A DNA stretch of 64,000 nucleotides. Origin: a virus (Duplodnaviria; Caudoviricetes). The position numbers were made by a program, and so were the translations under genes. Below the pieces are notes generated by a model. It was not told where the DNA came from and ran no database searches. It saw nothing but the letters and a program-made list of their open reading frames with translations. Numbering within the stretch: the first letter of the stretch is position 1; each line of letters opens with the position of its first letter. The DNA is taken from IMG/VR virus record IMGVR_UViG_3300033067_001837, positions 1-64,000 of that record; one strand, written 5' to 3'. Positions 4,941 to 39,900 of the stretch are shown here, in pieces.

Positions 4941-6242
4941 ATGACATCACAAATTTTAGCACATTATTCTTCTTTAGAAAAAAATTTAAATATAAAAAGT
5001 GTTCGGAATAACGTTACATATTTTTCACCTGTGAATTTTACAGAATCAATGTCTACGGCACGACATCGGTGGTTCCCTTATAAAGAAGGTTTTTCCCCCT
5101 CATTTGTTAAAAAGTTTTTAACTGATTATTGCGATAATCTAACCGGTACAGTTTTCGATCCTTTTTCAGGTGTCGGCACAACTGCGCTTGCAGCTTCGAG
5201 TTTAGGGCTTGAATCTATTGGTTTTGATGTTAATCCACTTGCCATTTTTATTGCAAAAACAAAATCTATAATACTTAGTCTTAAACAGATAAATGAACTA
5301 GAATCTTATGTTAAAGAATTTAGTTTGGCATTATTAATAAATTCTGTTGAACCTCCAAAAAATGAGACTGTCATAAAGTATTTTGATCCTAAATACTTGG
5401 ATGCTATTCTAAAAATTAAATACTTTATTGAGCATTTAAAAATAACTGAATTTGAATCTCTTTTTAAATTAGGTTTACTATCCTTAGTTGAAAAATATTC
5501 AACACACCGTAAAGCTGGAAATGGTGTAAAGAAAAAAACAAGAATAAATTATGGTCATAATGGGCTAACCGCTATAGAAGAAATAAGAGCAGATCTTATA
5601 TTAACTTTAAATTTGTATATCGCTGATTTAAAAATAGATAATAGTCTTTCTAGTATTAAATACTTTCAATGTTCCTCGTTAGATCAAAACGCCTACGAAA
5701 ATATTGATAATATTTCAGCAGTAATTACATCTCCTCCTTATGCTAATTGTTTCGATTATAGTAAAATTTATATGAGAGAACTCTGGCTTTGTGATTTCTT
5801 TTTATCTAAAAATGATCAAAAAAAATTCCGAGATACTTCACTAAGATCACATGTGCATTCTATTTGGGTTCCTCGTTATGAAATAGGTAGTCTTGAAATT
5901 GTTGATAACGAAATTAAAAAAATTATTGAATCTCAGCAACTTTGGTCAAACAAAATTGGTAACATGCTCTCAGGATATTTCAAAGACATCAACAGATTAT
6001 TGCAAGTAATAAAACCTAAATTAAAAAATAAAGCTCTTTTAGGCTTTGTTGTGGGGAATTCATTTTATGGGGGGACTGTCATTGCTACTGATTTGCTAAT
6101 AGCGGAATTAGCACAAAAAAATGGTTATAAAGTAGAAGGAATAGTAACCTATAGAAAAATCATCCCTTCTTCACAACAGTTTAAAAAAATTGAAGATAAT
6201 TATTATATGAGAGAAAGCTTGGTGATTTTCAGAAATGATTAA
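4941..6242 (+). CDS. DNA methyltransferase M1 (probable N4-cytosine)
   Basis: HRWFPYKEGFS, DPFSGVGTT (motif I), ITSPPY (motif IV); AT-rich. Confidence 0.9.
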   Translation: MTSQILAHYSSLEKNLNIKSVRNNVTYFSPVNFTESMSTARHRWFPYKEGFSPSFVKKFLTDYCDNLTGTVFDPFSGVGTTALAASSLGLESIGFDVNPLAIFIAKTKSIILSLKQINELESYVKEFSLALLINSVEPPKNETVIKYFDPKYLDAILKIKYFIEHLKITEFESLFKLGLLSLVEKYSTHRKAGNGVKKKTRINYGHNGLTAIEEIRADLILTLNLYIADLKIDNSLSSIKYFQCSSLDQNAYENIDNISAVITSPPYANCFDYSKIYMRELWLCDFFLSKNDQKKFRDTSLRSHVHSIWVPRYEIGSLEIVDNEIKKIIESQQLWSNKIGNMLSGYFKDINRLLQVIKPKLKNKALLGFVVGNSFYGGTVIATDLLIAELAQKNGYKVEGIVTYRKIIPSSQQFKKIEDNYYMRESLVIFRND

Positions 6243-14140: not shown

Positions 14141-14170
14141 CCCCGCCCTGAAGGACGGGGAGGATGTCAA
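14141..14170 (+). mobile_element. IS200/IS605-type end hairpin remnant
   Basis: CCCCGCCCTGAAGGACGGGGAGGATGTCAA; near-identical copies at 19865 and 22130. Confidence 0.65.
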
Positions 14171-16206: not shown

Positions 16207-16252
16207 GTCAATCACCCCGCCATAAAGGACGGGGTCTAACGCGGAGAATTTC
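16207..16252 (+). mobile_element. Collapsed ISC/IS200-605-like mini-element
   Basis: GTCAATCACCCCGCCATAAAGGACGGGGTCTAACGCGGAGAATTTC. Confidence 0.55.
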
Positions 16253-18238: not shown

Positions 18239-18492
18239 TACGAAAGGTATTTTTAATGATCGATTCCGAAGAAATGCCCCCAAAAATGTCCACACTCAGT
18301 CAAGCCATGCAGCGCTTATTGAATCCAGAAATAGATCAATCGTTGGTGCGCATTAACGCAGATTTCATCCATCGTTACCCGGAAAAAACCGAGTATATTC
18401 TCAGTCAGATATATGAATTCGGGTATAGAAGCGGAATGGAAGCCACCGGGCAGTTTATCCGGCTGTTAGAGCAGCAGGCGGTGTCAGAATGA
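18232..18492 (+). CDS. Hypothetical protein
   Basis: Coupled to xis by ATGA. Confidence 0.5.
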   Translation: MLIRKVFLMIDSEEMPPKMSTLSQAMQRLLNPEIDQSLVRINADFIHRYPEKTEYILSQIYEFGYRSGMEATGQFIRLLEQQAVSE

Positions 18493-18683
18493 CCACCAAG
18501 CTCTTAACGCTGGATGAGTGGTTAGATGCGCGATTTACCCCCAATGGGCGTCCGACCCGATATACCGTCTATCGCTGGATCAAAAATCGGCGCATTGAGC
18601 CGTTACCGATTCGGTACGGAAGCCAGTTCTATTTCATGGAGAACGCTGAGTATTTTTCAACAGAAGGAAAAACGCATGACTGA
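18489..18683 (+). CDS. xis: Excisionase (lambda Xis-like)
   Basis: LTLDEW...PTRYTVYRWIKNRRIEPLPIRYGSQFYFMENAEY. Confidence 0.75.
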   Translation: MTTKLLTLDEWLDARFTPNGRPTRYTVYRWIKNRRIEPLPIRYGSQFYFMENAEYFSTEGKTHD

Positions 18684-19581
18684 TTTGGTCTTTGAAACTG
18701 ATGATGGCGATTTGGATATTTCGGCTATTTCTGACGCTCTGGCGGCGCTCGGCGACCCGCGCTTCGACCCGCAGCGCTGCTACCTGCCCGCCGACGACGG
18801 ACTCGGCTTCGTGCGCGTTCCCGCCGACCCCGAGTTCGTGATCGGCACGCGGCAAGCAGCGGCGCAGCGGGTCGCCAAAATCATTAACGCCGAGGTGCCC
18901 GACGACGAAATCAACGAGGTGCTCACGCCAACCCCGGAGTTTTACATCGCGCGCTATCCGGTCACCGTCGCCCAGTTCAAAGCCTTCGTCGAAGCGACGC
19001 GGTTCGAGGTCGGCGATGACCGTGCCTTGCGCGACCCGGACCACCGACCCGTGCGTTGGGTCAGTTGGCACGAGGCCCTGGCCTATTGCGACTGGCTGAA
19101 CGATGGCCTCGCCCACTCGCCGGCCTTCGAGGGTAGCGAGATGGCCCGCCGGGTACGCGAAGGTGGCTGGCGGGTTGCCCTGCCCAGCGAACTGGAGTGG
19201 GAGAAGGCGGCGCGGGGCGGGCTGCGGGATGCCGTCTTTCCGTGGGGCGACAAAATCGACCCGAATCGCGCCAATTACGAAGAGACCAGAATCGGCGATA
19301 CCTCAACGGTCGGCTGCTTCCCGGCTAACGGCTACGGTCTATACGACATGATCGGCAACGTCTGGGAGTGGACGCGCAGTCATTATTCAGTTTATCCCTA
19401 CTGTGCGGAGGATGGCCGCGAAAATCTGGCCGCCGGGGACGCCGTCTTCCGGGTCCTGCGCGGCGGCTCGTGGTTCGCTCCCCGCGTTTTCGCGCGCTGC
19501 GCCTACCGCTACTGGGGTCACCCCGACCTCCGCGGCCTCTTCGGTTTTCGGGTGGTGTTGCGTTCGGCCCCTGTTCGTTAG
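18676..19581 (+). CDS. FGE-sulfatase/C-type lectin-fold protein, DGR target-like
   Basis: YPVTVAQF, PVRWVSWHEA, LPSELEWEKAARG, GLYDMIGNVWEW, RVLRGGSW...GFRVV; high GC. Confidence 0.9.
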   Translation: MTDLVFETDDGDLDISAISDALAALGDPRFDPQRCYLPADDGLGFVRVPADPEFVIGTRQAAAQRVAKIINAEVPDDEINEVLTPTPEFYIARYPVTVAQFKAFVEATRFEVGDDRALRDPDHRPVRWVSWHEALAYCDWLNDGLAHSPAFEGSEMARRVREGGWRVALPSELEWEKAARGGLRDAVFPWGDKIDPNRANYEETRIGDTSTVGCFPANGYGLYDMIGNVWEWTRSHYSVYPYCAEDGRENLAAGDAVFRVLRGGSWFAPRVFARCAYRYWGHPDLRGLFGFRVVLRSAPVR

Positions 19582-19660
19582 CTCTGGCCTCGGGGAACTC
19601 TGGCCTCTGGGACTCTGAGTCCCGGCCTCTGGAGGGGGTTCGGGGGAAACTTCCCCCGCC
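19450..19660 (+). other. DGR variable region plus downstream CTCTGG repeats and GC hairpin
   Basis: A-poor NNC/NNT codons between GGSW and GFR; CTCTGG repeats after stop; hairpin CGGGGGA-AACT-TCCCCCG at 19641-19658. Confidence 0.65.
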
Positions 19661-19683
19661 AGAAATTCTCATTTTGGCCCAAA

Positions 19684-19875
19684 ATGTACGTCCAGCGCAA
19701 GTTGGGCTGCGGCGCATACCTGCAAGACCGATTCAAACAGGCGGCGCTTCTGATCAAGGGTGACTGCGACAACTTCTCTGACAAGGTTCAGCAACTGGTT
19801 GAACGCACCCTGCATCTGGAAAATGAAATTGAGCAGATCAGAAGCAAGAAGCATCGCTATCCCTCCCCGCCCTAA
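19684..19875 (+). CDS. Chimeric small ORF (end of insert plus original phage gene tail)
   Basis: Second TCTGAC at 19777-19782 is in frame. Confidence 0.4.
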   Translation: MYVQRKLGCGAYLQDRFKQAALLIKGDCDNFSDKVQQLVERTLHLENEIEQIRSKKHRYPSPP

Positions 19876-19894
19876 AGGACGGGGAGGATGTCAA
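19865..19894 (+). mobile_element. IS200/IS605-type end hairpin remnant
   Basis: CCCCGCCCTAAAGGACGGGGAGGATGTCAA. Confidence 0.65.
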
Positions 19895-19910: not shown

Positions 19911-22007
19911 ATGATGAGAAAGCTTGCTACGATTGCTAGAATAAACCGTATTTTTCCGCACCCCAATGCAGATAATCTGGAACTGGCGCAAATTCGCGGC
20001 TGGCAGGTCTGCATCAAAAAAGGGGAGTTCCATGAGAAACCTATCGGCTGTCCATCTGGACTTTGCGTTTATGTGGAAATTGACTCGGTTCTCCCGGAAC
20101 GCCCGGAGTTTGAGTTTTTGCGGGAGCGGAAATTCCGTATTAAGACGATCCGGTTACGCGGAGAATTAAGTCAGGGTATTGCGTTTCCGCTGTCGATTCT
20201 TCCAGATGGAACTGAGTGGATTGAAGGTTTGGATGTTACCGAAGCACTCGGCATTACCCTCTATCAACCGCCGATCCCGGCGTGTTTGGGTGGTGATGTT
20301 GTAGGCACGTTCCCATCGTTTATTCCGAAAACCGACTGCGAGCGGATTCAGAATCATCAGTGGATTCTGGAAGAACTGGCGGATATGGAATGGGGAGTGA
20401 CTGAGAAGCTCGACGGCTGCTTTGAACGTAATGCCTATCTTCCATTATGGGACGGAGGAAGTATAACAATGGGTGAAATTGTCTTGCATGGTAAAAGACC
20501 AACCCTAATAGGGATGGACTCAACCGGTAAGTTAATTCCTTGCGAAATTACTGATGTTTTCAGGAACGGTAAAAAAGATAACTGGATAGATGTTTTTTAC
20601 AATCCAGTTCATAAAGCTAATCATGCCGGGAAGTCTGGAAGGATGCGGGTAACAAAAAACCACAAGATATTTTTGTCTTCTGGTAAAGAAGTCTTTGCAG
20701 GTGACTTGAAGATTTCTGATAAATTGATTTCTTACGAGGAATCACCAGACAAAAATTGCCTACATTATATCGAGTCATCCCTTCTAGGGTGTGGCAGTAT
20801 TTGTCCGAAACTTGGAAAGAACAATAAATATCAGGAAAGTCATAAGTCTGATCATGGTGAATTTTGTAATTATATAGAGCAAATACTAGGAGAGTGTTTT
20901 GCCTCACAGCGAACAGTGATTAGTGGGTATGGTACAAATATGACACAGGTTGCATCAAGAACCTATAAGGAGATGGATAGATTAAGATTGAAATGGTATC
21001 CGAATGGAAAAAAGTCACTTCCAGAAAATTTAAACTGGATTGATGATTTTTCATTTGCGAAGCTATATATGGATGATGGCTATATAGCTCATTCGGAACT
21101 TCAAAACGATAGGGCAAACATTGCAACAAATGGATTTACCAAGAGCGAAGTTGAAAGATTAGCGGCTAAACTTGAGGAAATGTATGGTGTTTTAACGAGT
21201 ATCCAAGAGTCAAGGGGGTATTGCTCAATAAGGATAAACTACCGAAAAGGAAGTATTGATAATTTCTGGAACGCTATTGCAAGACATATTCATCCAGTCT
21301 TTAAATATAAGCTTCCAGAAAAGTATCGCTCAACGGAATTCACTCCGTATATATCCTGCAAGAAGGAGAAAAATCCTGTTTATGTTGATGTTACGAGAAT
21401 AAAAGAAATTCCTCCGATAGAAGATAACTTTCCAAGCGGGCGTACTGGGTTTGATTTGGAAACAACAACGCACAATTATATATGCGGCGGGTTGTTAGTT
21501 CATAATTCCAGTTGCACCGTTTGGTGGGAAGACGACGTTCTGCATGTTTGTTCGCGTAATTGGGAGTTAAAACCCGACGACCGCAATGCATTCTGGCAGG
21601 TCGCGAATCGTGAAAATTTGGTAGATAAGCTGTGCGGAATGCCGATTGCTCTGCAAGGTGAATTGTTGGGGCCGAAAATTCAGGGTAACGCTTACAAAAT
21701 TAATAAGCCGACCCTGTTTTTCTTTGATGCTTACGATTTTAAGCAAAATCGCTATCTGGATTTTTTAGAGTTTCGCGAACTCTGTGATCACCTGGATTTA
21801 GAGGTGGTGCCGATGATCGCTTACCGCGCTCGGTTAAAGTCAATAGATACCCTGCTGGCGGAAGCGGACGCCGATAGCCAGTTGCGCAATAGTTGTCCAC
21901 GAGAGGGTCTAGTCTGGAGACCGCTGCATGAACGCTATGATTCGCGGATAGGTCGGGTTGCGTTTAAAGCCATCTCCAATCGGTTCTTGTTGAAGGTTAA
22001 AGATTGA
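19911..22007 (+). CDS. ATP-dependent RNA ligase (DRB0094/Rnl5-like) with intein
   Basis: RKLATI...HPNADNLELA...GWQV, IRLRGELSQG, PKTDCERIQN, TEKLDG/SS, LQGELLGP, REGLV, FKAISNRFL. Confidence 0.9.
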   Translation: MMRKLATIARINRIFPHPNADNLELAQIRGWQVCIKKGEFHEKPIGCPSGLCVYVEIDSVLPERPEFEFLRERKFRIKTIRLRGELSQGIAFPLSILPDGTEWIEGLDVTEALGITLYQPPIPACLGGDVVGTFPSFIPKTDCERIQNHQWILEELADMEWGVTEKLDGCFERNAYLPLWDGGSITMGEIVLHGKRPTLIGMDSTGKLIPCEITDVFRNGKKDNWIDVFYNPVHKANHAGKSGRMRVTKNHKIFLSSGKEVFAGDLKISDKLISYEESPDKNCLHYIESSLLGCGSICPKLGKNNKYQESHKSDHGEFCNYIEQILGECFASQRTVISGYGTNMTQVASRTYKEMDRLRLKWYPNGKKSLPENLNWIDDFSFAKLYMDDGYIAHSELQNDRANIATNGFTKSEVERLAAKLEEMYGVLTSIQESRGYCSIRINYRKGSIDNFWNAIARHIHPVFKYKLPEKYRSTEFTPYISCKKEKNPVYVDVTRIKEIPPIEDNFPSGRTGFDLETTTHNYICGGLLVHNSSCTVWWEDDVLHVCSRNWELKPDDRNAFWQVANRENLVDKLCGMPIALQGELLGPKIQGNAYKINKPTLFFFDAYDFKQNRYLDFLEFRELCDHLDLEVVPMIAYRARLKSIDTLLAEADADSQLRNSCPREGLVWRPLHERYDSRIGRVAFKAISNRFLLKVKD
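20418..21506 (+). mobile_element. Intein (363 aa, LAGLIDADG) in ligase motif I
   Basis: CFERNA..., VTKNHKI, LYMDDG, GFDLETTTHNY...LVHN/S. Confidence 0.9.
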
Positions 22008-22129
22008 TTTTTTACTGTCATTCTACCAATGACCTTGGTAGAATGGTGGGGTTTAATGGGTTATTACAACAGATTGCGATGTTTTTCAAACAAAACAAAC
22101 TCATGACCCTACTTTTTGAGTGCCGCAAG

Positions 22130-22159
22130 CCCCGTCCTTGAGGGCGGGGAGGATGTCAA
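22130..22159 (+). mobile_element. IS200/IS605-type end hairpin remnant
   Basis: CCCCGTCCTTGAGGGCGGGGAGGATGTCAA. Confidence 0.65.
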
Positions 22160-22562: not shown

Positions 22563-22946
22563 ATGAGCGATGTGCAAGACGAATTTGGCGTAGATTCCGG
22601 GCGGAAATTCGTGGCGTTGACCAGCCTTGAACGGCTGGCATCACTGCTGATGGAACTGTCTTTTCAGGAGCTTATAGATGCCGAAGCGGCCATTCATGTG
22701 CGGATTAGCGATGTCGCTGCGGAAGAAAAGGATAAGCTGATGAAGAGTGCTGCGATGGTTGCGGCGCATTTTGGCGTTAAGCCTGAAGTCCTTTTTTCGG
22801 CTCCAGCTACCAAGCGGGCTAGTAGAAAAAAGGATACCGTCGTAAAATTCACGCATCCCGATGACCCAAAGAAGACTTGGTCTGGGAAGGGCCGGAAGCC
22901 AGCTTGGGTCAGTGAACTGCCTGAGACACAGTTGGCGGCGGAGTAA
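22563..22946 (+). CDS. hns: H-NS family protein
   Basis: KFTHPDDPKKTWSGKGRKPAWV. Confidence 0.85.
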   Translation: MSDVQDEFGVDSGRKFVALTSLERLASLLMELSFQELIDAEAAIHVRISDVAAEEKDKLMKSAAMVAAHFGVKPEVLFSAPATKRASRKKDTVVKFTHPDDPKKTWSGKGRKPAWVSELPETQLAAE

Positions 22947-23310: not shown

Positions 23311-24621
23311 ATGAATTCTGTGTTTGTACTGAGTAGTACCCAAAATCCGTTAATGCCGACCCGTCCGGCGCGGGCGCGAAAACTCTTAACAGCGGGTCGT
23401 GCGGCAGTTTACCGTCTACACCCTTTCACGATCATTCTGAAAGATCGGGCTGATGGTGAAACACAGGATGTCGAGGTGAAAGTTGATCCAGGTAGCAAGA
23501 CGACCGGGATTGCGCTGGTAGGCCACTTTGAACAACAGGGCGCGGTGGTGCTGTGGGGTGCAAACCTGAATCATCGCGGCCAAGCCATAAAGAATAACTT
23601 GGAGTCCCGGAGTTCGCTACGTCGGAGTCGCCGGGGCCGAAAAACTCGTTATCGGAAATCCAGGTTTTTGAATAGAACTCGCAAAGCAGGTCGGCTACCG
23701 CCATCCGTGGAAAGCCGAGTAGGCAATACCGAGTCTGTAATTTACCGATTAGCTTCACGCTGTCCAATTACTGAGGCCAGCGTGGAGATCGTCAAATTCG
23801 ACATGCAAGCGATGGTCAACCCGGAAATCAGTGGAACTGAGTACCAACAGGGTGAGTTAGCCGGATACGAGGTCAGGGAGTATCTCCTGGAGAAATGGCA
23901 CCGCGCCTGCGCTTATTGCGGCGCGAAAGAGGTTCCGCTCCAAGTTGAGCATATTTATCCCAAGGCGCTTGGTGGTAGCAACCGGGTTTCCAATCTGACT
24001 TTGGCGTGTCAACCCTGTAACCAGAAAAAAGGTAGTCGCCTAATTGATGAGTTTATTAAAGACCAACCGGAACTACTTAAACTAATTAAGTCACAAGCAA
24101 AGACACCTTTAAAAGATGCCGCCGCTGTTAATGCTTCTCGATGGGCGCTAGTGAATCGACTTAAGCAGTGGCTACCTGTCGCCACAGGAAGTGGCGGACG
24201 CACCAAGTTCAATCGTACCCGACAAGGTTACAACAAAGATCACTGGATTGACGCCGCTTGTGTTGGCGAAAGTGGCGAACAGGTCACGATTCGGAAGGGG
24301 ATGAAACCCTTGGTTATTACAGCGAAAGGTCGCGGTACGCATCAGGTGGTTCGCACGGACAAGTACGGCTTTCCGCGTGGAAAAGCGGGGCGTATTAAGC
24401 GGGCATTCGGTTTCTCAACCGGCGACATCGTGAATCTTAATCAGCCAAAAGGAAAATATGCGGGAACGTATATTGCTCGACTGACAAGTATTCGAATAAA
24501 AGGTCAGTTCGATATTAAATGGTCGGATGCAAGAATATCCGCAAACCACAAACACTTCACACTCATTCAACGCAACGACGGGTTTGACTATGCAACAACT
24601 GAACGAAAAAACACAACGTAA
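23311..24621 (+). CDS. iscB: IscB RNA-guided endonuclease
   Basis: PLMP, RuvC-I VDPGSKTTG, Arg-rich bridge helix, RuvC-II VEIVKFD, HNH CAYC...EHIYP...N...CQPCN, RuvC-III HWIDA. Confidence 0.95.
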   Translation: MNSVFVLSSTQNPLMPTRPARARKLLTAGRAAVYRLHPFTIILKDRADGETQDVEVKVDPGSKTTGIALVGHFEQQGAVVLWGANLNHRGQAIKNNLESRSSLRRSRRGRKTRYRKSRFLNRTRKAGRLPPSVESRVGNTESVIYRLASRCPITEASVEIVKFDMQAMVNPEISGTEYQQGELAGYEVREYLLEKWHRACAYCGAKEVPLQVEHIYPKALGGSNRVSNLTLACQPCNQKKGSRLIDEFIKDQPELLKLIKSQAKTPLKDAAAVNASRWALVNRLKQWLPVATGSGGRTKFNRTRQGYNKDHWIDAACVGESGEQVTIRKGMKPLVITAKGRGTHQVVRTDKYGFPRGKAGRIKRAFGFSTGDIVNLNQPKGKYAGTYIARLTSIRIKGQFDIKWSDARISANHKHFTLIQRNDGFDYATTERKNTT

Positions 24622-24634
24622 CAAGGGGTAATGT

Positions 24635-25750
24635 TTGAAAATCAAAACCGCTAGAAACAACCTACTCAATCCCATAGCTGCCGTTATTGGTGCCATTCAG
24701 CAGAAACAAACCCTCCCAACTTTAACCGGAGTGCTCATTCAAGCGCGCAGCGACGGCACCGTCTTTACCGGGACAGACCTAGAAATTCAACTCACCGCAA
24801 AGACCGACCTCATTCCCGAAGCGGAAGGTGGCTGGTCCATCCCGGCGAAACGTCTTCATGATATTTTGCGAGTGCTCCCGGATGACGCTGATGTCACGCT
24901 CGCTGTTGAAAAGGACGGTAAAACTACGCTACGGAGTGGGCGGAGTCGGTTCGTGTTGAAGGCCTTGCCCGAATGTGATTATCCTAACCTTCTCGACATT
25001 CCGTATGGTGGGACGATTTCGATTGCGCAAGGTAATTTGAAGAAGGCCATTACTGCAACTGCGTATGCAATGGCCGTGCAGGACGCGCGTTATTATCTGA
25101 ATGGACTCTCACTGGAGTGCTCATCGACTAAGCTCACCGTCTGCGCGACGGATGGGCATCGATTAGCTGTCACTTCCATCAAAAACGCCGAGATTCAGGT
25201 CGATGAAGACCAGTCCATGATTTTGCCGAACAAGAGCATCGGGGCGTTAATGAAGTTGCTGGACGAAGACAGCGAGGAACAGGTGACAGTCCTACTGGGC
25301 AAGAACCACGTTCGGGTCAATAGCGGATCGCTGTTTCTGGTGGCTAAGCTCATTAATGGCGAGTTCCCGAACTACAAGCGGGTTATTCCTCGTGAACCAC
25401 CGAGTAACGTCCTGGTATCGCGAGAGGAACTGTTGGGGTTATTGCGGCGCGTTTCCTTGCTGTTGAACGCAAAATCGAATAACGGATTGGAGATTACGTT
25501 CAACTCCGGATCGCTGAGTGCGCGAGCTACGAATACGGATAACGAAGAGGCTAATGATGAAATCTCTGTTGAGTACAACAATGGTCTGTTTGTCTCCGGT
25601 TACAACTACCGTTATCTTCAAGACGCGGTTCAGGCTATTGATGGGAAATCGTTAAAGTGGTCTTTCTCCGGTCCGTTGAACTCCATTCTGATTGAAGACG
25701 CCGATACGCCTGACGCCGGTTTGCATGTTATCATGCCAATGCGGCTATAG
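24635..25750 (+). CDS. dnaN: DNA polymerase III beta sliding clamp
   Basis: GTDLEI, QDARYYLNG, ATDGHRLA, FPNYKRVIP, VIMPMRL. Confidence 0.95.
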   Translation: MKIKTARNNLLNPIAAVIGAIQQKQTLPTLTGVLIQARSDGTVFTGTDLEIQLTAKTDLIPEAEGGWSIPAKRLHDILRVLPDDADVTLAVEKDGKTTLRSGRSRFVLKALPECDYPNLLDIPYGGTISIAQGNLKKAITATAYAMAVQDARYYLNGLSLECSSTKLTVCATDGHRLAVTSIKNAEIQVDEDQSMILPNKSIGALMKLLDEDSEEQVTVLLGKNHVRVNSGSLFLVAKLINGEFPNYKRVIPREPPSNVLVSREELLGLLRRVSLLLNAKSNNGLEITFNSGSLSARATNTDNEEANDEISVEYNNGLFVSGYNYRYLQDAVQAIDGKSLKWSFSGPLNSILIEDADTPDAGLHVIMPMRL

Positions 25751-30940: not shown

Positions 30941-33900
30941 TTAGAACCGCTCGTTCTCCACCAGCTTCCGCATTCCCTTACTAGCGATATACATGCCCTG
31001 GTTTGACTTCTGGTGGGCCTGCCGGCGCTGTTTAAAGGCATTCTGGATGCGTTGCGGGGTAATCCGAATGAGCGGATTCTTTCGGTTGAACTCCGCAATC
31101 GCTTTCCTGAACTCCGCAATTCCTTCCTCGTCGCGGGCCTCGCGAGCATAGACCAGACCTTGAATCAGATTCTGCGCCCGACGTTCCCGTTCAGTTTTGA
31201 ACTCGAACAGCAGATTGTTTTCCTGGTACGCCTCAAAGACTTCGGCGGGCTGGAAACCGAGCGCCTGGGACACCCACTGGCCGGTGCCAACATCATTCGT
31301 TAGTTGATCGCCGCGCCGGGTCTTGATGCCCTCGGTCTCATAGCGATAGGCTTTCACCATGTTCGCCAGCGGGGACGGGAGTAGCGACTCAAACGCCCGG
31401 TAGCCCATATCCGCACTCTTTCGTTCCCTGGCATAATTCGCATCACGCACGGCATCCGCGAATTTGAACGTCAACCCAAACGCCGGGCCAGCGAGTTGCT
31501 TCATGTACTCACTGACCAGTTCCTGCCCTTCTAAATCACTCGGCGGCTTTCGCACCCAGAACCGAATCAAGTCCAGACTCAAGCGTGGTGATAATGAAAT
31601 TCCATCCTTAGCTCCCAACAGCATCGGAGCCATCCCGACTGGTCCGGTCATTACCGCTTGCCGACCGCGTTCCCCGATCATTTCGGTAAGTTGTTGGTTG
31701 GCCCACAGTTCAAAATCCCACGGATCATCATCATCACCAAACGCCGCCTCCATGGCTTTCATCATCAGCACCACCATCGTGTAAATCGGTAAGCCCATGG
31801 CTCCACCCAGCAGACTGGCGTTCAGCATCATCCAACCCAACCGTGCCCGGGCTTCGGCACGTTCGGAAGGATCAATTCCCTTGCGCATCGGCATCGACTG
31901 ATACGCATCTCGCAGCAGCCGCCAGGTCATTATCTGTGCGTAAGTACGAAACAGCGTCAACACTCGCGCCATATCGCTGCGCATCCAGCGGGCGCGGTTC
32001 GCGTTACTGTAATCGCCCTGGGTGAAAGCAATCGCTTTATAGGCGTAATCCTGAGCGATGCGATGCGCCTCTTCGCGGGGTTTATCCTTCAACTGTTCGC
32101 GCATCAGACGATAAGCGGCAATCGCGGTCACTTCGCGGTTCGCGACTTCGGAATGATGGAACAGGAACGCGCCGGTCTTCATCGTTAAATCCCACAGACG
32201 ACTGGCCTTACCCTGCCAGTTATCCCGCATCTGCCAGCTATCCTCACCCAGACCCGCTAACTGCGTCGTGGCGGAACGCGATACCCGTCCAGAACGCTCC
32301 AGGAACTCCATAAGGCGGCCCATATCGCCCTGATACTCACCGCCCAGGATTTCCATTCCGGCAGCCTCTAATGGGCTAATAGCGCGGTCTATGGTGTAAC
32401 CCTGAGCCTCCAGGGCTTTAATCGCTTGTTGATACTCCGCTTCATCCGTATAAGTGGAATACTTCACCTCATTCTGCGAAATCCCGTTCGCATCCGGTAC
32501 GGTGCGGCTGGCTTTCAACGCCATCGGCGGTTTCAACGGATTGACACCCATCTTCCGCCAGCGATTCAAGACGCTGGAATAATCGTACATCGCTTTATGA
32601 ATTGCGCCGAACGCGGCCCCACCGCCAAATTTGGACGCCAGTTCCGGGAAGGTCATCAGTGGCAACTGTGACAAGTTCACCATCGCCGTTGAGGGATTCG
32701 TGAGGTGCCAGATAAAGCCCAGAGCGGTCAGACGGTTCGCCCAGGTCGCATTGGTGGGATTCATTAACCAGTCGTAGGACTTAATCAGTTCATTCAGAAT
32801 TGCGCCAGCTTTTGCTTGATCATTTTCATGGGCCGATAGTCCCGTAACTTCTCGCTCCATCTGATAAAGTTGTTCCGACAGCACGTCCGCATAGCGTAGT
32901 CGCGCTATCATGTTTGCGGAACCGTTCATAAACCTCCCGTAGGCCCGCAGCGCATCCCGGTTATAACCAAAGATGCCCTTGCGCCGCAGCAGGTGTTTCC
33001 GCACCGATAAGTCGGGCAAATTCTCCAGATAGAGATCGTACAGCGACTGTTTCAGCGCATCCCGTTCTTTCGGGTTGCGTACCGATTCATCAATGAACTG
33101 GTACATTTCACCCACGAACGTCCCACTGGGGGCAGACTCAATCTTGTCGCGTATGATCTGGTAATCTGTGTTGACTGTCCAACCGGCCTTTTCGAGTAAC
33201 TGGCGAGCCTGCTTCTGTTCGTGGATCGTCTCGAATTTCGAGAATGCCACTTCCTTCTCCAGCTTCGGCTGACCTGCCTCATCCAAGACCGGCTGTCCGG
33301 TACGCTTATTAATTTGCGGAATCATCCGTTCGGCAAAGACTTCGTACTTTCCATAGCGGGTCAGCGGGACATACGGCTGCCGACCTCGAGCAGCTTCAGC
33401 GTACAACTGAATCGACGCCATCATATTCTCTTGCCGGGCCTTGAACGCATAGTTCATAGCGCGATACAGCATTTGGGCATCTTCAGGGAGTTGCACCAAT
33501 TCAGCCCGCATCGCCGCGTGTTCTTCCGGCACAAAGGACTTCTGCGAGACCCGATCTACCAGGACGTTAATCGCCCGGCGTTGTGAACTGACAATCAAAT
33601 TTTCCAGCTTCCCGTAGGTCGCTCGATCCCGATCCATCAGTTCCCGCATCCGGGCCGCATGGGGTAGCTCATCGATCTTACGGCGCAACTGATAAAGCGC
33701 TTTCTGCTCATTGGAGAGCGTTTGATAGGTATTCTTCGCCTTTAAAATAGCTGAAGGATCAATTGGGCCGACCGGATCACTGATCTTGAAGCTTATCCCC
33801 GGTGAGTAGCGTTCCCCACGCTTAAACAACCGATACAGCGCCTCCACGACCGTCTTATCCTTGAGGGCTGCTGTCGCCCACTGCTGTTGAAGCTGCGCTG

Positions 33901-36900
33901 CCTCGGCCACATCCGCGTGATTATCGGCCATCCGCTTGGCGCGTTCCATCGTCACCCGAACCATCCCATAACCGGCCCGTCCCACTCGCTCCTTCATGGC
34001 GGCATACTTCATGTCATTGACGGACTGATAATTCTCAAACACCCGCTGTACCATATCCGCCAAAATAGGACTTTGCTTTTTCAGTTCCACAATCTTTTGC
34101 GTCAGCACCCCATACCAGCGCACTCGTTCAGCATAGGTGTAATCCGTGTCATCAATCTCACGGGGCGGGAGCGGTTTCGTAGGATCAATGCTGTGTAGCG
34201 TCGATCCATGAAGAATGTAGTCGAACAGATAAGCCGTCTGCCGATTACGCCCGGCCTCGCGCTGCCACTGTGGCACTAGACCATCGTACATATCGCGCTT
34301 AATGCGGCTCTTGGCACCGTCAATCAGTGAAGCAGCGTTCTCAAAGAACTCGGCAGACGGTAGCAACGTCCGTCCCAGTGCCGGGATTTTTCGGCTGGCG
34401 AGTTCAACTAACTGCTGGCGGGTCATCAGCCCCAACCCACGATTAAACCAGTCACGACCTTTATCCCACAACTTCTCCATCGTGAACGGGTCGGGCTGCT
34501 GGTCAAGAATCAACTGGCCAATATCGTCGTTGATGGATTGAGGGGTTGGAAGGGAGTAGCGGATGTCGGAATTAACGCTTAACGCCGTTCTGAAATTCGA
34601 CTGTAGCACCACATCCTTATCGGCGATGCCATCTCGGAACATCGTATTACGGTAAGGCGGGGTCGCTTGCCGTTCTTCCGGCGTCATCTCCAGACGGCTT
34701 GCGGTATCGCGAGCTTCAATTTCTCCAAAATTGCGCTTATAAAGCCCACCAGGACCCCATTTACTAATTTCAAGTGTAAGATTATTTTCTATTTTTACGG
34801 CAGCTTTACGTTTTTCTTCTGCATTCGCACGCTCTTGGCTACCGCGTGGCAGACTATCGCGTAGTCTGGCGAATTTAGTCTTATTGGTTCGCGCCTTTTT
34901 CTGCTGCTTGGTCAGTAGTTCAATCTCGCGCTTGGCGCGTTCGATAACTTCATAATCCTTTTTGAAAAATAAATCATCCTCATCATACAGTGACGAACTT
35001 GCTCCGGGGCTATGGCCTTCTATCGCCTGTACCGCGTGCTGCAATTCATGGATCAATGTCTTCTTAGCGTCTTCATACGTATGCGCCCTAATGTTAATCC
35101 GTTGATCGTTCCGGCCATATGAACCGCCTGCATCATGTATATTCGGATTAATGGTGAGATTAACATTTATACCCTGGAGTTGTGGATAATCAGAAAACAA
35201 TTGTGGATGAGAAACGATTTGCTCTAGTTGAGTCTGAATGCGATTTAGTGTTTCAGGCTGCTGTTGAATCCAGTCCGCGTTGAACGAAAAATCGCTATCG
35301 TCGATTTCAAATCTCCAACGATTATCGAATCCCTTGAACCAGCCTGTTTCCTTGCGTACCGTCTCTGCATCTTCACCGCTCTCAACTCGTTGTTTCGCTT
35401 GTTGCAGTAGCGGCTGATTCGCCGTAGTGGCTCGCACACCCGCATAGCTCTGCACCACGCTCTTTTTCCCGGAAAACACCCAGCGGCTCGTTGCCTCTTC
35501 ACCCTGATTCAGCTTCGCCTGAGATTCCCGCGCAAATTGCAGCACGTCGGTCATCGTTAGCGAGTTCACGAAGTCCTTGGCTAAACCGAATCGTCTCAAT
35601 ACCGCTTTAATCAAGTGCAGCAGCTTGTTCGTTGCCGCCAGCAACAGCCCGATCTTCTCATGCAGTCCGCGTTCAACAGTGACCGCAAAGATTTCACTGG
35701 CGCGATCCAGCTTACTTAAACCAGGCTGAGACGCATCGACTTGTGCGGCAATGGAACGAATTTCGCGATTATCGACCTTCTCCAGACGATCCAGTGCGTT
35801 CAGTACTTGAACGAACTCGGAAGAATCACGAAGATTCTGTGATGACCAATGACCTACAACCTCATGGGATAATACCTCTCTCGCTCTATCTAAAGAAGCA
35901 AGATTATCGGCAATTAGATAAATCTGATTGCTGCGTAAATCATAGAAACCTTCGGCGCGGGGGTCATTGAGGCGTTCCTGTAGGTCAGTAGACAGATCGG
36001 AAACGGACTGAACCACGTTCACCGTCAACCCGGCTCGTTGCCAAGCGACTCGATGCGGGTCAATCAGTTTTTCGACCCCAGAAGCAGAAACCCCGGAAGG
36101 GGCCGGGGTCTGTGGATTCGATTTGGAGTAAACCATGCCCGCAACGGGCGTTCCTGTTAAGCCTTCACGCAACTGTTGTACAACATCCGCCAGTAATCTT
36201 CTGGATTCTCCCACCCCTTCTCCGCTTCTTGATGAAAGGGTAAGCAGATAAGCTGTTCTCTTAAGCGTCGCGCTCCCTGCCTGCGCCGCTCGCGCTCCTG
36301 GGGACTCAGCGAGTGTTGTGAACAAATCTTCTCCAAACGCTCGCCCGGTGTCAGTGTTGATAAATCTTCTGTTTTCGAAGTCATAGCGAATCGCCTTTAA
36401 ATCAGGAACGTTCTCCAGTATATTCTGATTCGACTTTTCAATCAATGACTGGAAATCAGCTTCATCATTTCCTTTCCACTGAATGCCTTGTTTTTCATGC
36501 GGCCACAGGTGCTTGGTCGTACCATGTTTAATAGCTGACGCCAGCATATTCTCGGTGCGTCGGTAAACCGCAATATCGGTGAGTCCCATCGGGTCTCCGA
36601 TAAATACGAGGCCATTATTAGCAGCATAATCAGAGACGGCAGCATAGAAACGACTTCCTTGACCGCCCTCTTTCAGATTGGAGACGTTAATCCAAACGGA
36701 TTGCTTGCGCCGCATTACATAGCCGTGTCTTGTTTCTGAAACTCCACTTTCATCAGTATAAGGAACCCGAATCTCCCATGCCTGCTCAGCATCCACTTCT
36801 AGCGCTTCCGACTTCGGGAGTTCCCGGACAGTAAAATCGGGGACAACCTGCTGAAAGACCTCGGGTAGATTTTTGGAAGTAGCCTTCGGATTCTGGAACA

Positions 36901-39900
36901 GCGCCGGGTCTTGCGCCAACAAACGCAGGGCGGTCGTAACAATCTGAGGTTGTGGAGAATTAACGGTAGGCTCGATGATAGATGGGAGACTGTCAGAGCT
37001 AATGGACGGTAGGATAATCGGCTTTGGTTCAAACCCGCTGGCCGTCATCAGTTCTGGTTTCAGCAACGCTACCCAGCTTTCGCCGCCACTGGTGACATCC
37101 ACAGCGTCATAACCAGCGTCCAAAATCAGTTGAGTCAGTTCTGCTGTTAGCTCATCGCTTTGCTGTCCCCAAGTTTCGTCGGTAATCCCGATATTCAGAG
37201 CCGCCTGCTTGTTCAGCCGAATCCATGCGCTATCCGTAGACTCAATGGGCTGAAAGATGACTTCATCTTCCTGCAAGATCGGCAACACTTCTTCGTTGAC
37301 TATCAACGGATTGAGCGGTTGGCGATACTGAATTTTCTTGGTTTTCCCTAATGAGAAGAACGAAGCCGTCCCTTTCTTCTTGGCAATATACACGCCATGG
37401 CCTTCCGTGGCTCCGAAGCTGGGTCCGCCCTCTGGCATGACGCCACGATACCCGGTAACTTGGGGCTGTTGATCGTAAGCGTGTTCTTCCTGCCAGCGTT
37501 TAAATAACTGCTCTCCTTTCAGATGTACCCACTCTCGATCTGCGGCAGGAGTTCCGGTATACAGTCGCTGACCGTTCGGCGCATCAGCGACCCAGGCACC
37601 GTTGTTCTGGTAGACCTTAACCGGCGACTCCAGAACCTGCAACTCGGTCGTCCCGTACTGAATGGCACGATATCCGCGTTGACGCGCTTCCTGGGCCACC
37701 AGGGTATCCATGGCTACACCCATCGCTTGATAGGGGTCGCCGGGGAGTTCTAACTCAGCGACCTTTTTCAGCCAGTCCGTTTTCGGGAACCATTTACTTG
37801 CTAATGCTTCGGATGGCAACCCTTCAAACGCCTCGACTTCGCTTTCCGGCACCACCAGTAACTCATTGGGCTGGAAGGTGAAGGTGTTTTCCACCATATC
37901 CGGCTGCGCGTCGGCATCCAGGAAGTAGAAGGTGCCTGCCTGAATCGCTCCGGTAGCCGGGCTACTGACTTTACGGTAAGCGGTTACTCGATTTCCTCCA
38001 ATAGTGACGGACGCTTTCTTTGCGGCGTTCATCGCGGCCCGACTAAACAGCGGTTGGCCCTGCATGACCGACGCTACCATGTCGGGTGTAATGTCGATAC
38101 TATGAACCGACTCTATCGCATTCACAGTGTTAATCTTGGTCTGACCGACCTGAGTGCCCCACTTCTTGATGTACTTATTGATTTCGTTAGGGATCGTCTC
38201 ATTATACAGACGCTTTAAAAATTTATCTCCACCCCCTTTGTACCTTTTTGATTGCTGCTCACCCGTTGTCCAAGCAACTTTATCATACCCGTTTTCTGTT
38301 GCGTATCTCAGCATCCGCTTAAAGACAAGACCGGCCCAGCCGGAAAGAGTCTGTCCAGACCCTGTAATAGTTTGCTTAAAGGGAGCATTAGGGACTCCAT
38401 CTGCAATCTCATTTGCATCTTGTGCTGCTAATGCGATAGCTTCTTCTGGAGAATAAGCGAGATAGTGTACTTCACGTCCGGCACTTCTTCCTTCTGCGTC
38501 AGTTACATAATAGTTATGTTTGTTTTCTGGGGGTGCATTTGGGTTGGAATCAATAGCCGTCCATCCAGTTGTATCTGTTGTAAGTAATATATACCCCCTA
38601 TCCTTCCCCTCCTGATGTCTCTTGCTTTGAATCTCCTCAATAAACAATACCTGCTTTCCATTTTCATCAGTACGATCATTAAACCTTACCCATGCAATAG
38701 CCCGCCCATCTGCTATATCACCATAATGTGTTTCGTCTGTAGTATAGGGTTCAATGTTGGGATTTGTTATAACTAACTCCCGTTGATTTTTTCCACCAGG
38801 TAAAGTCCATTTTGTATTTCTATTTTGGCTGAGCTTGTATTCATTTATTAACTCAGGATAACGCTTTTCTAGAGCATCGTAATGATACGATCCATCTACA
38901 TAATTATTATTTTCATCAAAAATTTCCCAAAAACCTGTATCAACCCTATACTTTACTCTATTACTTGGAATTCCAAACTCAGTTTCTTCCACCTGAATCT
39001 CATTGCTCCGCACAAACGCCAACACATCCTCTTTCGGCACCAGCGTTTTCTGTCCGCGCAGCCATTCCAGCGTTCCCGTCCAGTCCAGTTCTTCCTGCTT
39101 CACCTGGCCTTTCTTCACCAAGTTTTCCAGGATCGACGCCCATTGCGGGCCAGGCGCTTTCTTTTGCGAAAGGTCGTTAATAACCTTGGATAATCCCGAA
39201 TAGAACATCGGATTCGGCTGATCACCGCGTGAAATCGCCGCTTGATCCGCAATCTGCACGTCACCCCGAGCCGCCTTTCGTACCCCGGCCTGCGCCCAGT
39301 TCACCAGATCTTCCAGGGTCAGCTTAGACGCATTGATCGGGTAGCCGCGCTGAATGAACCAGCCACGCATAGTGTTGACCAGTCGCCGTAGGAAATCGGC
39401 GATCTTCGGGCTGATGGTCTTAGCGACCCACTCAATGAACTTCCCGTCTGCTACCTGGAAGTCCGCTAAACGGCCCTGAGAGACCGCTTCTTCTACCAAG
39501 TAAGCGGTGTACTCCTTGGGATCGTTCGTGGCACCAGCGGCCTCCAGGCGGGCATACACGCGATTTAGGAATTGACGTAGCGCCGGATTCTTCTCCTGCG
39601 CCGGATTCTTCACCAGTTTCATCGCCGCCGCGTCAACATCGGCCTGTTGCTGGCCGTGAATCATCTCATGCAGCAGTACACTGGGCGCAGCTTCGGTAGA
39701 TAGATTCGGGAGAACCGCAAAGGTTAAACCGCTGCGGGGATCGAATATTCCAACCAATCGGCCATTACCACGAATTTCTTGAATAGCATCATCTTGTTGA
39801 CGCCCAGTCTTCTCCGCAAACACCCGTGCAATATCATCAACTTCTTTCGAGTTAATCAGCACCAGCCCGCCTTTCTGGCCTTTCTCGCCACGCGCTAGTA

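What the first reader, a model, noticed from the sequence alone, without database searches (positions are those of the whole stretch)
18676..19875. DGR target cassette inserted in frame into a small phage gene between TCTGAC repeats
Seen: the GC-rich segment 18736-19782 (1047 bp) is bounded by TCTGAC at 18730 and 19777, both in frame. Removing it gives a coherent MTDLVFETDDGDLDISAI-SD-KVQQLVERTLHLENEIEQIRSKK protein. The insert borrows the phage start codon and carries an FGE-sulfatase domain, a VR-like 3' end, CTCTGG repeats and a GC hairpin. No TR or RT is in the window. Phage DGR targets are usually tail proteins; this one is in the early operon. Inference: a captured bacterial DGR target that may still be diversified in trans by a host DGR.
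Basis: partly seen in the sequence, partly recalled or inferred. Interest (0 to 1): 0.72.

Follow-up and report, generated by a model that had tools for sequence, protein, structure and literature searches.

The report
Bacterial DGR fragment fused into phage gene
A phage picked up about 1 kb of a bacterial hypermutation (DGR) cassette, namely the variable sensor domain of a NACHT-type protein plus a scrap of the reverse transcriptase gene; it overwrote most of a small phage gene and left an in-frame chimera with no machinery to diversify it.

Summary
The sequence features are real.

- **What the segment is.** Window 18736 to about 19725 is foreign DNA. It has GC 0.67 and GC3 0.80, against 0.48 and 0.48-0.58 for the phage. 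It is 82.6% identical in DNA to a Competibacteraceae gene.
- **What it encodes.** It carries the last 281 codons of a bacterial NACHT-FGE/C-type-lectin DGR target. This includes the variable repeat (VR), the family-conserved post-VR repeats and two hairpins.
- **New: an RT scrap.** A roughly 40-nt remnant of the matching DGR reverse transcriptase gene follows at 19686-19725.
- **A complete relative exists.** An Accumulibacter contig holds the full cassette: target, template repeat (TR) and RT.
- **No machinery in the phage.** The 110-kb phage has no TR and no RT. No cognate TR was found anywhere I could search.
- **The fusion is derived.** Two related phage contigs lack the segment. At that position they carry a 133-aa gene whose N-terminus matches the window's first 18-20 codons.
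- **So the event was a replacement.** Codons about 21-133 of that gene were overwritten. It was not a clean insertion into a 50-aa gene. The TCTGAC repeat is at chance level (P 0.57; 0.25 in frame). The end of the supposed tail ORF (19862-19875) reads into a repeated phage intergenic hairpin.

Diversification in trans and a decoy function both remain untested. Read-level data could not be obtained.

The parts
18489..18683 (+). Upstream phage gene, Exc-like (64 aa). Its stop overlaps the ATG of the chimeric gene by 8 nt.
   Evidence: PF07825 Exc, E 3.7e-8. The same overlap and gene order are seen in related phage contigs L274 and L276.
18676..19581 (+). Chimeric ORF of 301 codons. It joins the phage gene X start to the bacterial FGE/C-type-lectin domain and ends at the donor's own stop codon.
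   Evidence: ORF listing; Pfam; an AGGA Shine-Dalgarno-like motif lies about 8 nt upstream.
18676..18735 (+). Phage-derived head: the first 20 codons of gene X (133 aa in relative L274).
   Evidence: tblastn of the L276 product: 15 of 21 residues identical over window 18676-18738, E 2.7e-6. blastn homology to L276 runs up to window 18737. Junction alignment A5.
18733..18738 (.). Left recombination junction. A short GAC-G(C) microhomology is shared by phage gene X and the donor genes.
   Evidence: Alignment A5; protein alignment A1.
18736..19578 (+). Donor-derived coding part: the last 281 codons of a bacterial NACHT-FGE DGR target. It comprises a linker with the LGDPRFDPQR motif plus a complete FGE-sulfatase/CLec domain.
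   Evidence: 66-72% protein identity to genes of Accumulibacter, Competibacteraceae and gammaproteobacterial MAGs, many of them longer. 82.6% DNA identity over 735 nt to L098. NACHT+FGE architecture in L190 and L216.
19453..19581 (+). Variable repeat (VR). The variable codons lie in 19474-19491 and 19510-19542, and the 3' constant (IMH-like) part runs from 19543.
   Evidence: Alignment with a bona fide TR and its VR in Accumulibacter contig L216: 20 of 26 TR adenines differ in the window. A content is 3.9%.
19582..19660 (+). Family-conserved post-VR segment. It holds CTCTGG/CTCGG repeats, hairpin 1 at 19609-19623 and GC hairpin 2 at 19641-19658.
   Evidence: Conserved downstream of paralogous VRs in G001, G002 (unpublished), G003 and G459. 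Both hairpins appear in the centroid DNA fold; the z-score is only -2.0.
19686..19725 (+). Remnant of a DGR reverse transcriptase gene. It encodes VQRKLGCGAYLQ, the motif that lies just before YVDD in the RT.
   Evidence: blastn 33 of 38 nt to the L216/L217 RT, E 3.4e-7 among 20 RT loci and 8.5e-7 among 49. A second RT (L219) matches at the homologous position. In 2.67 Mb of loci translated in six frames, the top five distinct hits are all DGR RTs at this motif.
19726..19861 (.). Sequence of unassigned origin, GC about 0.5.
   Evidence: No significant match to donor loci, to relatives or elsewhere in the phage. The RT-family HMM alignment across it is not significant.
19862..19894 (+). Copy of a repeated phage intergenic hairpin element, immediately upstream of the RNA ligase gene.
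   Evidence: Copies at 14141, 16215, 22130 (minus strand) and 76797; 4 matches in the window against 0.01 expected.
19911..22007 (+). RNA ligase gene, interrupted by an intein. This is where homology to the related phage resumes.
   Evidence: blastn: L274 2373-2878 matches window 19911-20416, and L274 2892-3428 matches window 21519-22054. Pfam.

Best explanation
**What it is.** The locus is a recombination scar. About 1 kb copied from a bacterial DGR cassette replaced codons about 21-133 of a small early-region phage gene ('gene X').

**Content of the foreign piece.**
- The 3' 281 codons of a NACHT-FGE/C-type-lectin target gene, with its VR.
- The VR's 3' constant part and the family-typical downstream repeats and hairpins.
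- A scrap of about 40 nt of the cassette's reverse transcriptase gene. The TR, the accessory gene and nearly all of the RT are missing.

**Consequence.** The left junction happens to be in frame. The phage's own ribosome-binding site and ATG should therefore translate a 301-aa protein made of 20 phage residues plus a stand-alone CLec ligand-binding domain.

**Shown.** The foreign origin, the homology to genuine DGR targets, the RT remnant, the absence of a TR and an RT in the phage, and the derived state relative to related phages.

**Inferred.** The mechanism was illegitimate or template-switch recombination at short microhomologies. The acquisition was recent, because the composition is not ameliorated. 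The VR is now frozen unless a compatible DGR acts in trans. Whether the chimera does anything for the phage is unknown. The default reading is a neutral or recently acquired passenger.
For: **Foreign origin**
- GC 0.667 and GC3 0.80, against a phage mean of 0.477 and GC3 of 0.48-0.58.
- It is the strongest GC island in 110 kb.
- 82.6% DNA identity to Competibacteraceae contig L098, running 63 nt past the stop codon.

**The family is a real DGR target family**
- Accumulibacter contig L216 carries the full cassette. Its parts are a NACHT+FGE target, a VR, the same hairpin, an AAC-rich TR 70 nt further on, and an RT.
- The L216 VR differs from its own TR at 14 adenines, with about one non-adenine difference inside the core.
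- The window VR differs from that TR at 20 of 26 adenines.

**RT remnant**.

**No DGR machinery in the phage**.

**The fusion is derived, and the event was a replacement**
- L274 shows the order Exc, 133-aa gene X, RNA ligase, with no FGE domain.
- The gene X N-terminus of L276 matches the window head.
- Homology breaks at 18737 and resumes at 19911.

**No sign of decay in the coding part**: the phage copy departs from otherwise invariant alignment columns at 3 of 78 positions. That is within the range of the bacterial homologues, 0-10.
Against: - The origin of 19726-19861 is unexplained, so the right junction is not located.
- The in-frame fusion, the intact 301-codon frame and the fully intact post-VR elements are also what selection for a functional or still-targetable gene would leave. 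However, an in-frame junction has a one-in-three chance, and a recently acquired GC-rich frame stays open easily.
- Only two short related contigs define the ancestral state.
- No reads were available to rule out an assembly chimera or to look for VR polymorphism.
Confidence: 0.72

Rival explanations
1. Live remote target. The phage VR is still rewritten in trans by a DGR of the host, during lysogeny or infection, because it keeps the VR flanks and the downstream recognition elements.
For: - The post-VR segment and hairpin 2 are identical to those behind VRs in G001 and G003.
- The VR's 5' scaffold (GTCCTGCGCGGCGGCTCGTGG) is identical to family TRs. Its 3' constant block matches the G491 TR over about 25 nt, up to the point where TR and VR normally diverge.
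- Transplanting the IMH plus hairpin is sufficient to target a heterologous gene in BPP-1 (PMC3240598).
- Trans diversification of incomplete loci was inferred for this DGR lineage (PMC10907252).
- The Exc-like gene suggests a temperate lifestyle.
Against: - No cognate TR was found. Strict 'differs only at adenines' patterns gave 0 hits in JGI metagenome contigs (two patterns) and in IMG/VR (one pattern).
- All three family TRs aligned with the window VR (G003, G459, G491) are one codon longer than it and carry further non-adenine differences.
- The host is unknown, and the phage's GC of 0.48 is far from the donor-like genomes at 0.67-0.73.
- The 90% protein cluster has a single member, so no VR variants are on record.
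- Wu et al. argue that targets remote from a phage DGR would not be inherited with it (PMC5758913). The mirror case, a phage-borne target of a cellular DGR, has no precedent that I found.
Confidence: 0.12
2. Selected anti-defence or decoy gene. The phage expresses a stand-alone copy of the sensor domain of a host NACHT-CLec antigen sensor. The copy would mask the sensed ligand, or poison sensor assembly, early in infection.
For: - The donor family is NACHT+FGE. Such DGR-diversified proteins are proposed antigen sensors of anti-phage conflict systems (PMC10907252).
- The chimera sits in an early DNA-metabolism region, with a conserved Shine-Dalgarno motif and translational coupling to the upstream gene.
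- The domain is complete and departs from invariant family residues no more often than the bacterial homologues do.
Against: - There is no functional evidence of any kind.
- There is no second phage with a similar capture. The closest FGE proteins in IMG/VR are at most 35% identical.
- The RT scrap and the unassigned filler look like an unselected accident.
- The gene that was destroyed is conserved in the two relatives.
- PADLOC gave no match.
Confidence: 0.1
3. Clean in-frame insertion of 1047 bp, with a TCTGAC target duplication, into a 50-aa phage gene.
For: - TCTGAC occurs at both proposed ends in the same frame, and the joined frame is open to 19875.
- The roughly 170-nt gap between the neighbouring genes would be filled neatly by such a gene.
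Against: - A shared 6-mer is expected by chance (P 0.57; 0.25 in frame).
- The joined protein has no homologue.
- Relatives carry a 133-aa gene with the same N-terminus but a different continuation, and homology resumes only at 19911.
- The ORF's last codons run into a repeated intergenic hairpin.
- Donor homology ends near 19725, which is 57 nt before the proposed boundary.
Confidence: 0.03
4. Assembly artefact: a bacterial fragment spliced into the phage contig by the metagenome assembler.
For: The record is a metagenome-assembled virus. The composition jump is abrupt. No reads could be examined.
Against: - The fragment is internal, with syntenic phage DNA continuing on both sides.
- There are no long shared repeats at the junctions that would mislead an assembler.
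- The left junction is a 3-5-nt microhomology inside a codon, which gives an in-frame fusion.
Confidence: 0.03

Closest known systems
Incomplete ('degenerate') DGR loci and trans-diversified targets of the cellular clade-5 DGR lineage, described in Thiohalocapsa PB-PSB1 with Accumulibacter among the hosts (PMC10907252)
   Same: - The target type is the same: a C-terminal CLec/FGE domain of NACHT/STAND proteins.
- The VR is retained while the RT, TR or accessory gene is missing or pseudogenised.
- The closest RT match to the remnant is an Accumulibacter DGR RT.
   Different: - This copy is in a phage genome, not a bacterial chromosome.
- Only the sensor domain was kept, fused to a phage gene start.
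- No RT or TR is anywhere in the replicon.
- I did not place the RT remnant or the L216 RT in the published clade-5 tree.
Accumulibacter sp. GCA_029255285.1 contig JAPUVI...C60 (locus L216): NACHT-FGE target, VR, hairpin, TR and RT
   Same: - About 80% DNA identity over the VR and the post-VR segment. Hairpin 2 is the same apart from one loop base.
- The TR scaffold is identical on the 5' side.
- The RT carries the ...LGCGAYL... motif found as a scrap in the window.
   Different: - It is a complete cassette.
- Its TR is one codon longer than the window VR and has several non-adenine differences, so it is a relative of the donor and not the donor itself.
FGE-sulfatase-type DGR variable proteins: category 'b' of Wu et al. 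2018 (PMC5758913), exemplified by Treponema denticola TvpA (PDB 2Y3C)
   Same: - An FGE-sulfatase domain with the VR at the extreme C-terminus.
- A sequence match to 2Y3C, E 6e-11, and to FGE structures, E 7e-22.
   Different: - TvpA is a lipoprotein with its DGR in the same genome.
- Here there is no signal peptide and no anchor domain, and the N-terminus is 20 residues of a phage protein.
Bordetella phage BPP-1 DGR (mtd-avd-TR-brt), the prototype phage DGR
   Same: - A phage-borne CLec-fold variable protein with the VR at the 3' end and a GC-rich inverted repeat downstream.
   Different: - BPP-1 carries its own TR, Avd and RT, and diversifies a tail-fibre protein.
- This phage has none of the machinery, and the protein is not in a structural module.
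- Hairpin 2 lies about 60 nt after the stop, against 4-34 bp in the phage DGRs compared by Guo et al. Its loop (AACT) does not fit their GRNA consensus (PMC3240598).

Membership tests
DGR target (variable protein) gene | A ligand-binding scaffold that tolerates variation (CLec/FGE-sulfatase fold), with the variable region at the C-terminus | tested here: met
   PF03781, E 1.1e-47. Sequence matches to FGE structures and to TvpA 2Y3C. The hypervariable positions are confined to the last 45 residues in the family alignment. The fold was not confirmed structurally: the AF2 model reached only pLDDT 36.
DGR target (variable protein) gene | A VR paired with a cognate TR that differs from it (almost) only at TR adenines | tested here: not met
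   - No TR in the phage.
- Strict adenine-only patterns gave 0 hits in metagenome contigs and viral contigs.
- Related TRs (G003, G459, G491) show a strong adenine bias (20 of 26 adenines differ) but also non-adenine differences and a one-codon length difference.
- The VR therefore bears the mark of past DGR mutagenesis, but no partner is known.
DGR target (variable protein) gene | A 3' constant (IMH-like) block and a GC-rich inverted repeat downstream of the VR | tested here: met
   The constant block GGTTTTCGGGTGGTGTTGCG and the hairpin at 19641-19658 are conserved in VR loci of G001, G003, G459 and unpublished G002. Their function was not tested.
Complete diversity-generating retroelement | A DGR-type reverse transcriptase gene | tested here: not met
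   PF00078 gave no hit in the 110,582-bp record. Only a roughly 40-nt remnant is present, at 19686-19725.
Complete diversity-generating retroelement | A template repeat, usually with an accessory gene (avd) | tested here: not met
   BLAST of 19380-19800 against the whole record finds only itself. avd was not searched for separately.
NACHT/STAND NTPase antigen-sensor protein | A NACHT (or other STAND) NTPase module N-terminal to the sensor domain | tested here: not met
   The 301-aa product has only the FGE domain. Homology to full-length relatives starts at residue about 21, downstream of their NACHT module.
Insertion with target-site duplication (transposon-like or precise insertion) | Direct repeats beyond chance at both ends, and an empty site in relatives that equals the flanks joined | tested here: not met
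   The 6-mer repeat is expected by chance. The relatives' site holds a 133-aa gene, not the joined flanks.
Formylglycine-generating enzyme (catalytic) | The catalytic cysteine pair in the C-terminal region | not tested
   By eye, the C-terminal region has a single Cys, in the ARCAYR motif, and this region is the hypervariable VR. That human FGE uses two cysteines there is from my own knowledge. No alignment-based check was made.

The most novel reading that the evidence does not exclude
The phage has domesticated the antigen-binding domain of a host NACHT-CLec immune sensor. Expressed early as a stand-alone protein, it could act as a decoy that masks the phage-derived ligand or poisons sensor oligomerisation. 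Because it keeps the VR flanks and hairpins, a lysogenised host's own DGR could even re-diversify it. That would make it a phage gene evolved by host hypermutation machinery.
Probability: 0.1. Interest if true: 0.8.

Novelty: new member of a known kind. Interest (0 to 1): 0.42.

Why it matters
- **A rare kind of transfer.** It documents part of a cellular DGR cassette moving from a bacterium into a phage. The part is the variable sensor domain of a putative NACHT anti-phage sensor. Phage DGR work has centred on self-contained cassettes that diversify tail proteins.
- **A testable case if functional.** If the chimera were functional, or still targetable, it would allow a test of sensor mimicry as counter-defence and of cross-replicon DGR targeting.
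- **Most likely an accident, but still informative.** It shows how patchy illegitimate recombination builds in-frame chimeras in phage early regions.
- **A methodological warning.** A plausible 'excised' ORF and a short flanking repeat are not evidence of a clean insertion. Two related contigs overturned that reading.

Tried and rejected
**Read-level test**
No coverage or VR polymorphism data were obtained, and read laying was not used.

**Empty allele of a 50-aa gene**
- The joined protein shares no three 5-residue words with any protein of 27-88 aa among 5.8 billion.
- There was no significant tblastn hit upstream of 80 RNA-ligase homologue loci or in 8 loci found with the 294-aa neighbour.
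- The 24-nt joined junction is absent from IMG/VR.
- The 324-aa neighbour found no relative in IMG/VR. It did find two in the large protein collection, and these resolved the question.

**Cognate TR**
It was shortened to 60 and then 45 letters. Both gave 0 hits.
- BLAST in G001-G003, in 93 genomes of G001's order, and in the RT loci found in that order and in 401 genomes of G003's order found only related TRs, not cognate ones.

**The tail 19726-19875 as further RT remnant**
- An HMM built from 46 family RTs aligns it in the right frame and register. The score is -0.5 bits and not significant. DNA identity collapses after 19725. Rejected.

**Structure**
- AlphaFold2 on the 15-sequence alignment gave pLDDT 36, so no fold search was run.

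**Host**
- The Atlas search with DnaN was uninformative.
- There was no prophage relative in 401 genomes of G002's order.
- Relatives cannot be drawn for a virus record.

**Other**
- P0011 could not be located on a contig.
- PADLOC gave no match.
- An early misreading of mine, a 7-bp TTCTGAC repeat, was corrected. The exact repeat is 6 bp.
Full report
**1. The observation**

The window is the first 64 kb of a 110,582-bp IMG/VR virus record that CheckV rates as complete. ATG 18676 overlaps the stop of an Exc-like gene by 8 nt. It opens a 301-codon frame that ends at TAG 19579-19581.

Residues 87-294 match FGE-sulfatase PF03781, E 1.1e-47. The stretch is the most extreme GC island of the whole record, with a peak of 0.697. 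Positions 18736-19660 have GC 0.667 and GC3 0.80. The phage mean is 0.477, and neighbouring genes have GC3 of 0.48-0.58.

TCTGAC is present at 18730-18735 and at 19777-19782 in the same frame. The record holds no reverse transcriptase, no second FGE domain and no second copy of the 3' region.

**2. What the foreign DNA is**

The protein has thousands of relatives. The best are 66-72% identical. They come from Accumulibacter, Competibacteraceae, Thiodictyon and other gammaproteobacterial MAGs, and many are longer.

In the alignment, homology starts at residue about 21 (ALAALGDPRFDPQR). The C-terminus shows the classic pattern of a DGR variable repeat. An invariant scaffold (RVxRGGSW, ARCAxR, GFRVVLRS) is interleaved with positions that differ in every sequence.

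At the DNA level the insert is 82.6% identical over 735 nt to a Competibacteraceae contig (L098). The match runs 63 nt beyond the stop codon.

That MAG (G001) holds four paralogous VR copies. An unpublished Methylococcales MAG (G002) holds two. Most of these copies share the post-VR CTCGG/CTCTGG repeats, the palindrome GGGACTCTGAGTCCC, and the hairpin CGGGGG-loop-CCCCCG with one or two loop bases varying. G001 C48 and C31 lack the hairpin, and in G001 C350 it is degenerate. The claims that rest on G002 are these two extra copies, the GC of its loci and its RT hits. None is essential to the argument.

**3. Proof that this is a DGR target family**

An Accumulibacter contig (G003 C60 = L216) carries a complete cassette:
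- an 846-aa NACHT + FGE protein with the homologous VR and hairpin;
- an AAC-rich template repeat 70 nt further on;
- a 313-aa RT.

Its VR differs from its TR at 14 adenines, with roughly one non-adenine difference in the core. This served as the positive control.

Against the same TR, the window VR differs at 20 of 26 adenines. It also has several non-adenine differences and is one codon shorter. Adenine is 3.9% of the window VR, against 17.3% in the rest of the insert.

The window VR therefore carries the footprint of adenine mutagenesis from a related TR that is not this one. Two of the G001 VRs share the short length class.

**4. A remnant of the RT gene**

The conserved post-VR segment ends at about 19660. 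Within 30 nt after it, the window reads ...FWPKMY VQRKLGCGAYLQ... . This matches the L216 RT just upstream of its YVDD motif (FWSNVY...VRRELGCGAYLRYVDD).
- blastn gives 33 of 38 nt, E 3.4e-7 among 20 RT loci and 8.5e-7 among 49.
- A second RT (L219) matches at the homologous position.
- When the 22-aa peptide is searched against 2.67 Mb of fetched loci in six frames, the top five distinct hits are all DGR RTs at this motif.
- Identity collapses after 19725.
- A family HMM does not significantly extend the match.

In L216 the hairpin and this motif lie about 1.5 kb apart, with the TR between them. The window copy has therefore lost the TR and almost all of the RT. Either a larger capture decayed, the donor locus was already degenerate, or the copying was patchy.

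**5. The ancestral state**

The 324-aa upstream neighbour has two relatives in the large protein collection. Their contigs show the same gene order.
- *L274.* The order is: a homologue of the 324-aa protein, a 78-aa gene, Exc, a 133-aa gene ('gene X') and an uninterrupted 335-aa RNA ligase.
- *L276.* The contig ends 49 codons into gene X. Its product starts MSDLQFETEDGDLDINAIFEAANRH. The window starts MTDLVFETDDGDLDISAISD.

DNA homology to L276 runs to window 18737. Homology to L274 breaks after 18654 and resumes only at 19911, the start of the RNA ligase.

No trace of the remainder of gene X is found in the record. The left junction is a GAC-G(C) microhomology.

The fusion is therefore derived. 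The event replaced about 113 codons of gene X with 1,175 nt:
- 990 nt of donor DNA;
- 136 nt of unassigned sequence;
- a copy of a repeated phage intergenic hairpin at 19862-19894. Other copies lie at 14141, 16215, 22130 and 76797, with 4 in the window against 0.01 expected;
- 16 nt of spacer before the RNA ligase start.

**6.

- The 50-aa protein obtained by excising 18736-19782 has no homologue.
- Its C-terminal end (19862-19875) lies inside the intergenic hairpin element.
- A shared 6-mer between the two junction zones is expected in 57% of shuffles, and in frame in 25%.

The 'insertion between TCTGAC repeats' is therefore not supported. The core idea holds: a bacterial DGR target was captured and fused to a phage start codon.

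**7. Function**

The coding part shows no decay. It makes 3 departures from 78 otherwise invariant columns, one of them in the phage-derived head. The bacterial homologues range from 0 to 10. The Shine-Dalgarno motif and the overlap with the upstream gene are conserved in the relatives. Translation of a stand-alone CLec domain is therefore likely. However, an unameliorated recent acquisition would look the same without any selection.

For trans-diversification:
- *In favour.* The target-side elements are intact, and family TRs share both VR flanks. In BPP-1, the IMH plus hairpin suffice to target a heterologous gene (PMC3240598). Trans action on incomplete loci was inferred for this lineage (PMC10907252).
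- *Against.* No cognate TR was found in the phage, in JGI metagenome contigs, in IMG/VR or in the bacterial genomes searched. The host is unknown. The read-level test was not possible.

I put this at about 0.12, and a selected decoy or anti-defence role at about 0.10.

**8. Comparison and verdict**

The nearest known things are the incomplete DGR loci of the cellular NACHT-associated DGR lineage (PMC10907252) and the FGE-type variable proteins such as TvpA (PMC5758913).
- As a DGR target, the locus meets the scaffold criterion and the downstream-element criterion.
- It fails the cognate-TR criterion.
- As a DGR, it fails on both the RT and the TR.

It is best filed as a degenerate DGR fragment, unusual for sitting in a phage early region as an in-frame chimera. 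It is interesting as a record of host-to-phage transfer of an immune-sensor domain. The evidence favours a recombination accident over a designed trans-diversified cassette.

Noticed in passing
window 19911-22007 (intein about 20417-21518): The RNA ligase gene (PHA02142 OB-fold plus RNA_ligase) is interrupted by an intein with a LAGLIDADG_2 endonuclease. Related phage contig L274 has an uninterrupted 335-aa RNA ligase, which is an intein-free allele with 77-80% DNA identity on both sides.
   Followed up: partly
window 14141-14170, 16215-16234, 19862-19894, 22130-22159 (minus strand); genome 76797-76816: A repeated intergenic hairpin element, CCCCGCCCTAAAGGACGGGG(AGGATGTCAA). There are 4 copies in the window against 0.01 expected. 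Two inverted copies flank the RNA ligase gene. Its function is unknown; it could be a terminator or a regulatory or recombination site.
   Followed up: partly
window 23311-24621: A 436-aa protein with RRXRR (E 9e-68) and HNH domains, that is, IscB-like. It lies just upstream of a phage-encoded DnaN (24635-25750).
   Followed up: partly
window 22563-22946: A phage-encoded 127-aa protein with an H-NS C-terminal DNA-binding domain (E 1.3e-8). This hints at a proteobacterial host.
   Followed up: no
window 30941-48856 (minus strand): A single open frame of 5,971 codons. It was seen only in the ORF listing.
   Followed up: no
L285 (G459:C191:3581-6708), TR-like copy at contig 5081-5208: Two convergent VR-bearing genes flank a TR-like repeat whose second half has lost its AAC codons. 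It differs from both VRs at many non-adenine positions. This looks like a decaying DGR locus in a bacterium of G001's order.
   Followed up: partly
This suggests several TRs, or relic targets.
   Followed up: partly
L274:1979-2380: Gene X, the phage gene destroyed in the window, is a 133-aa protein with no Pfam match and only a weak PHROG hit (phrog_22456, E 0.0012, unknown function).
   Followed up: partly
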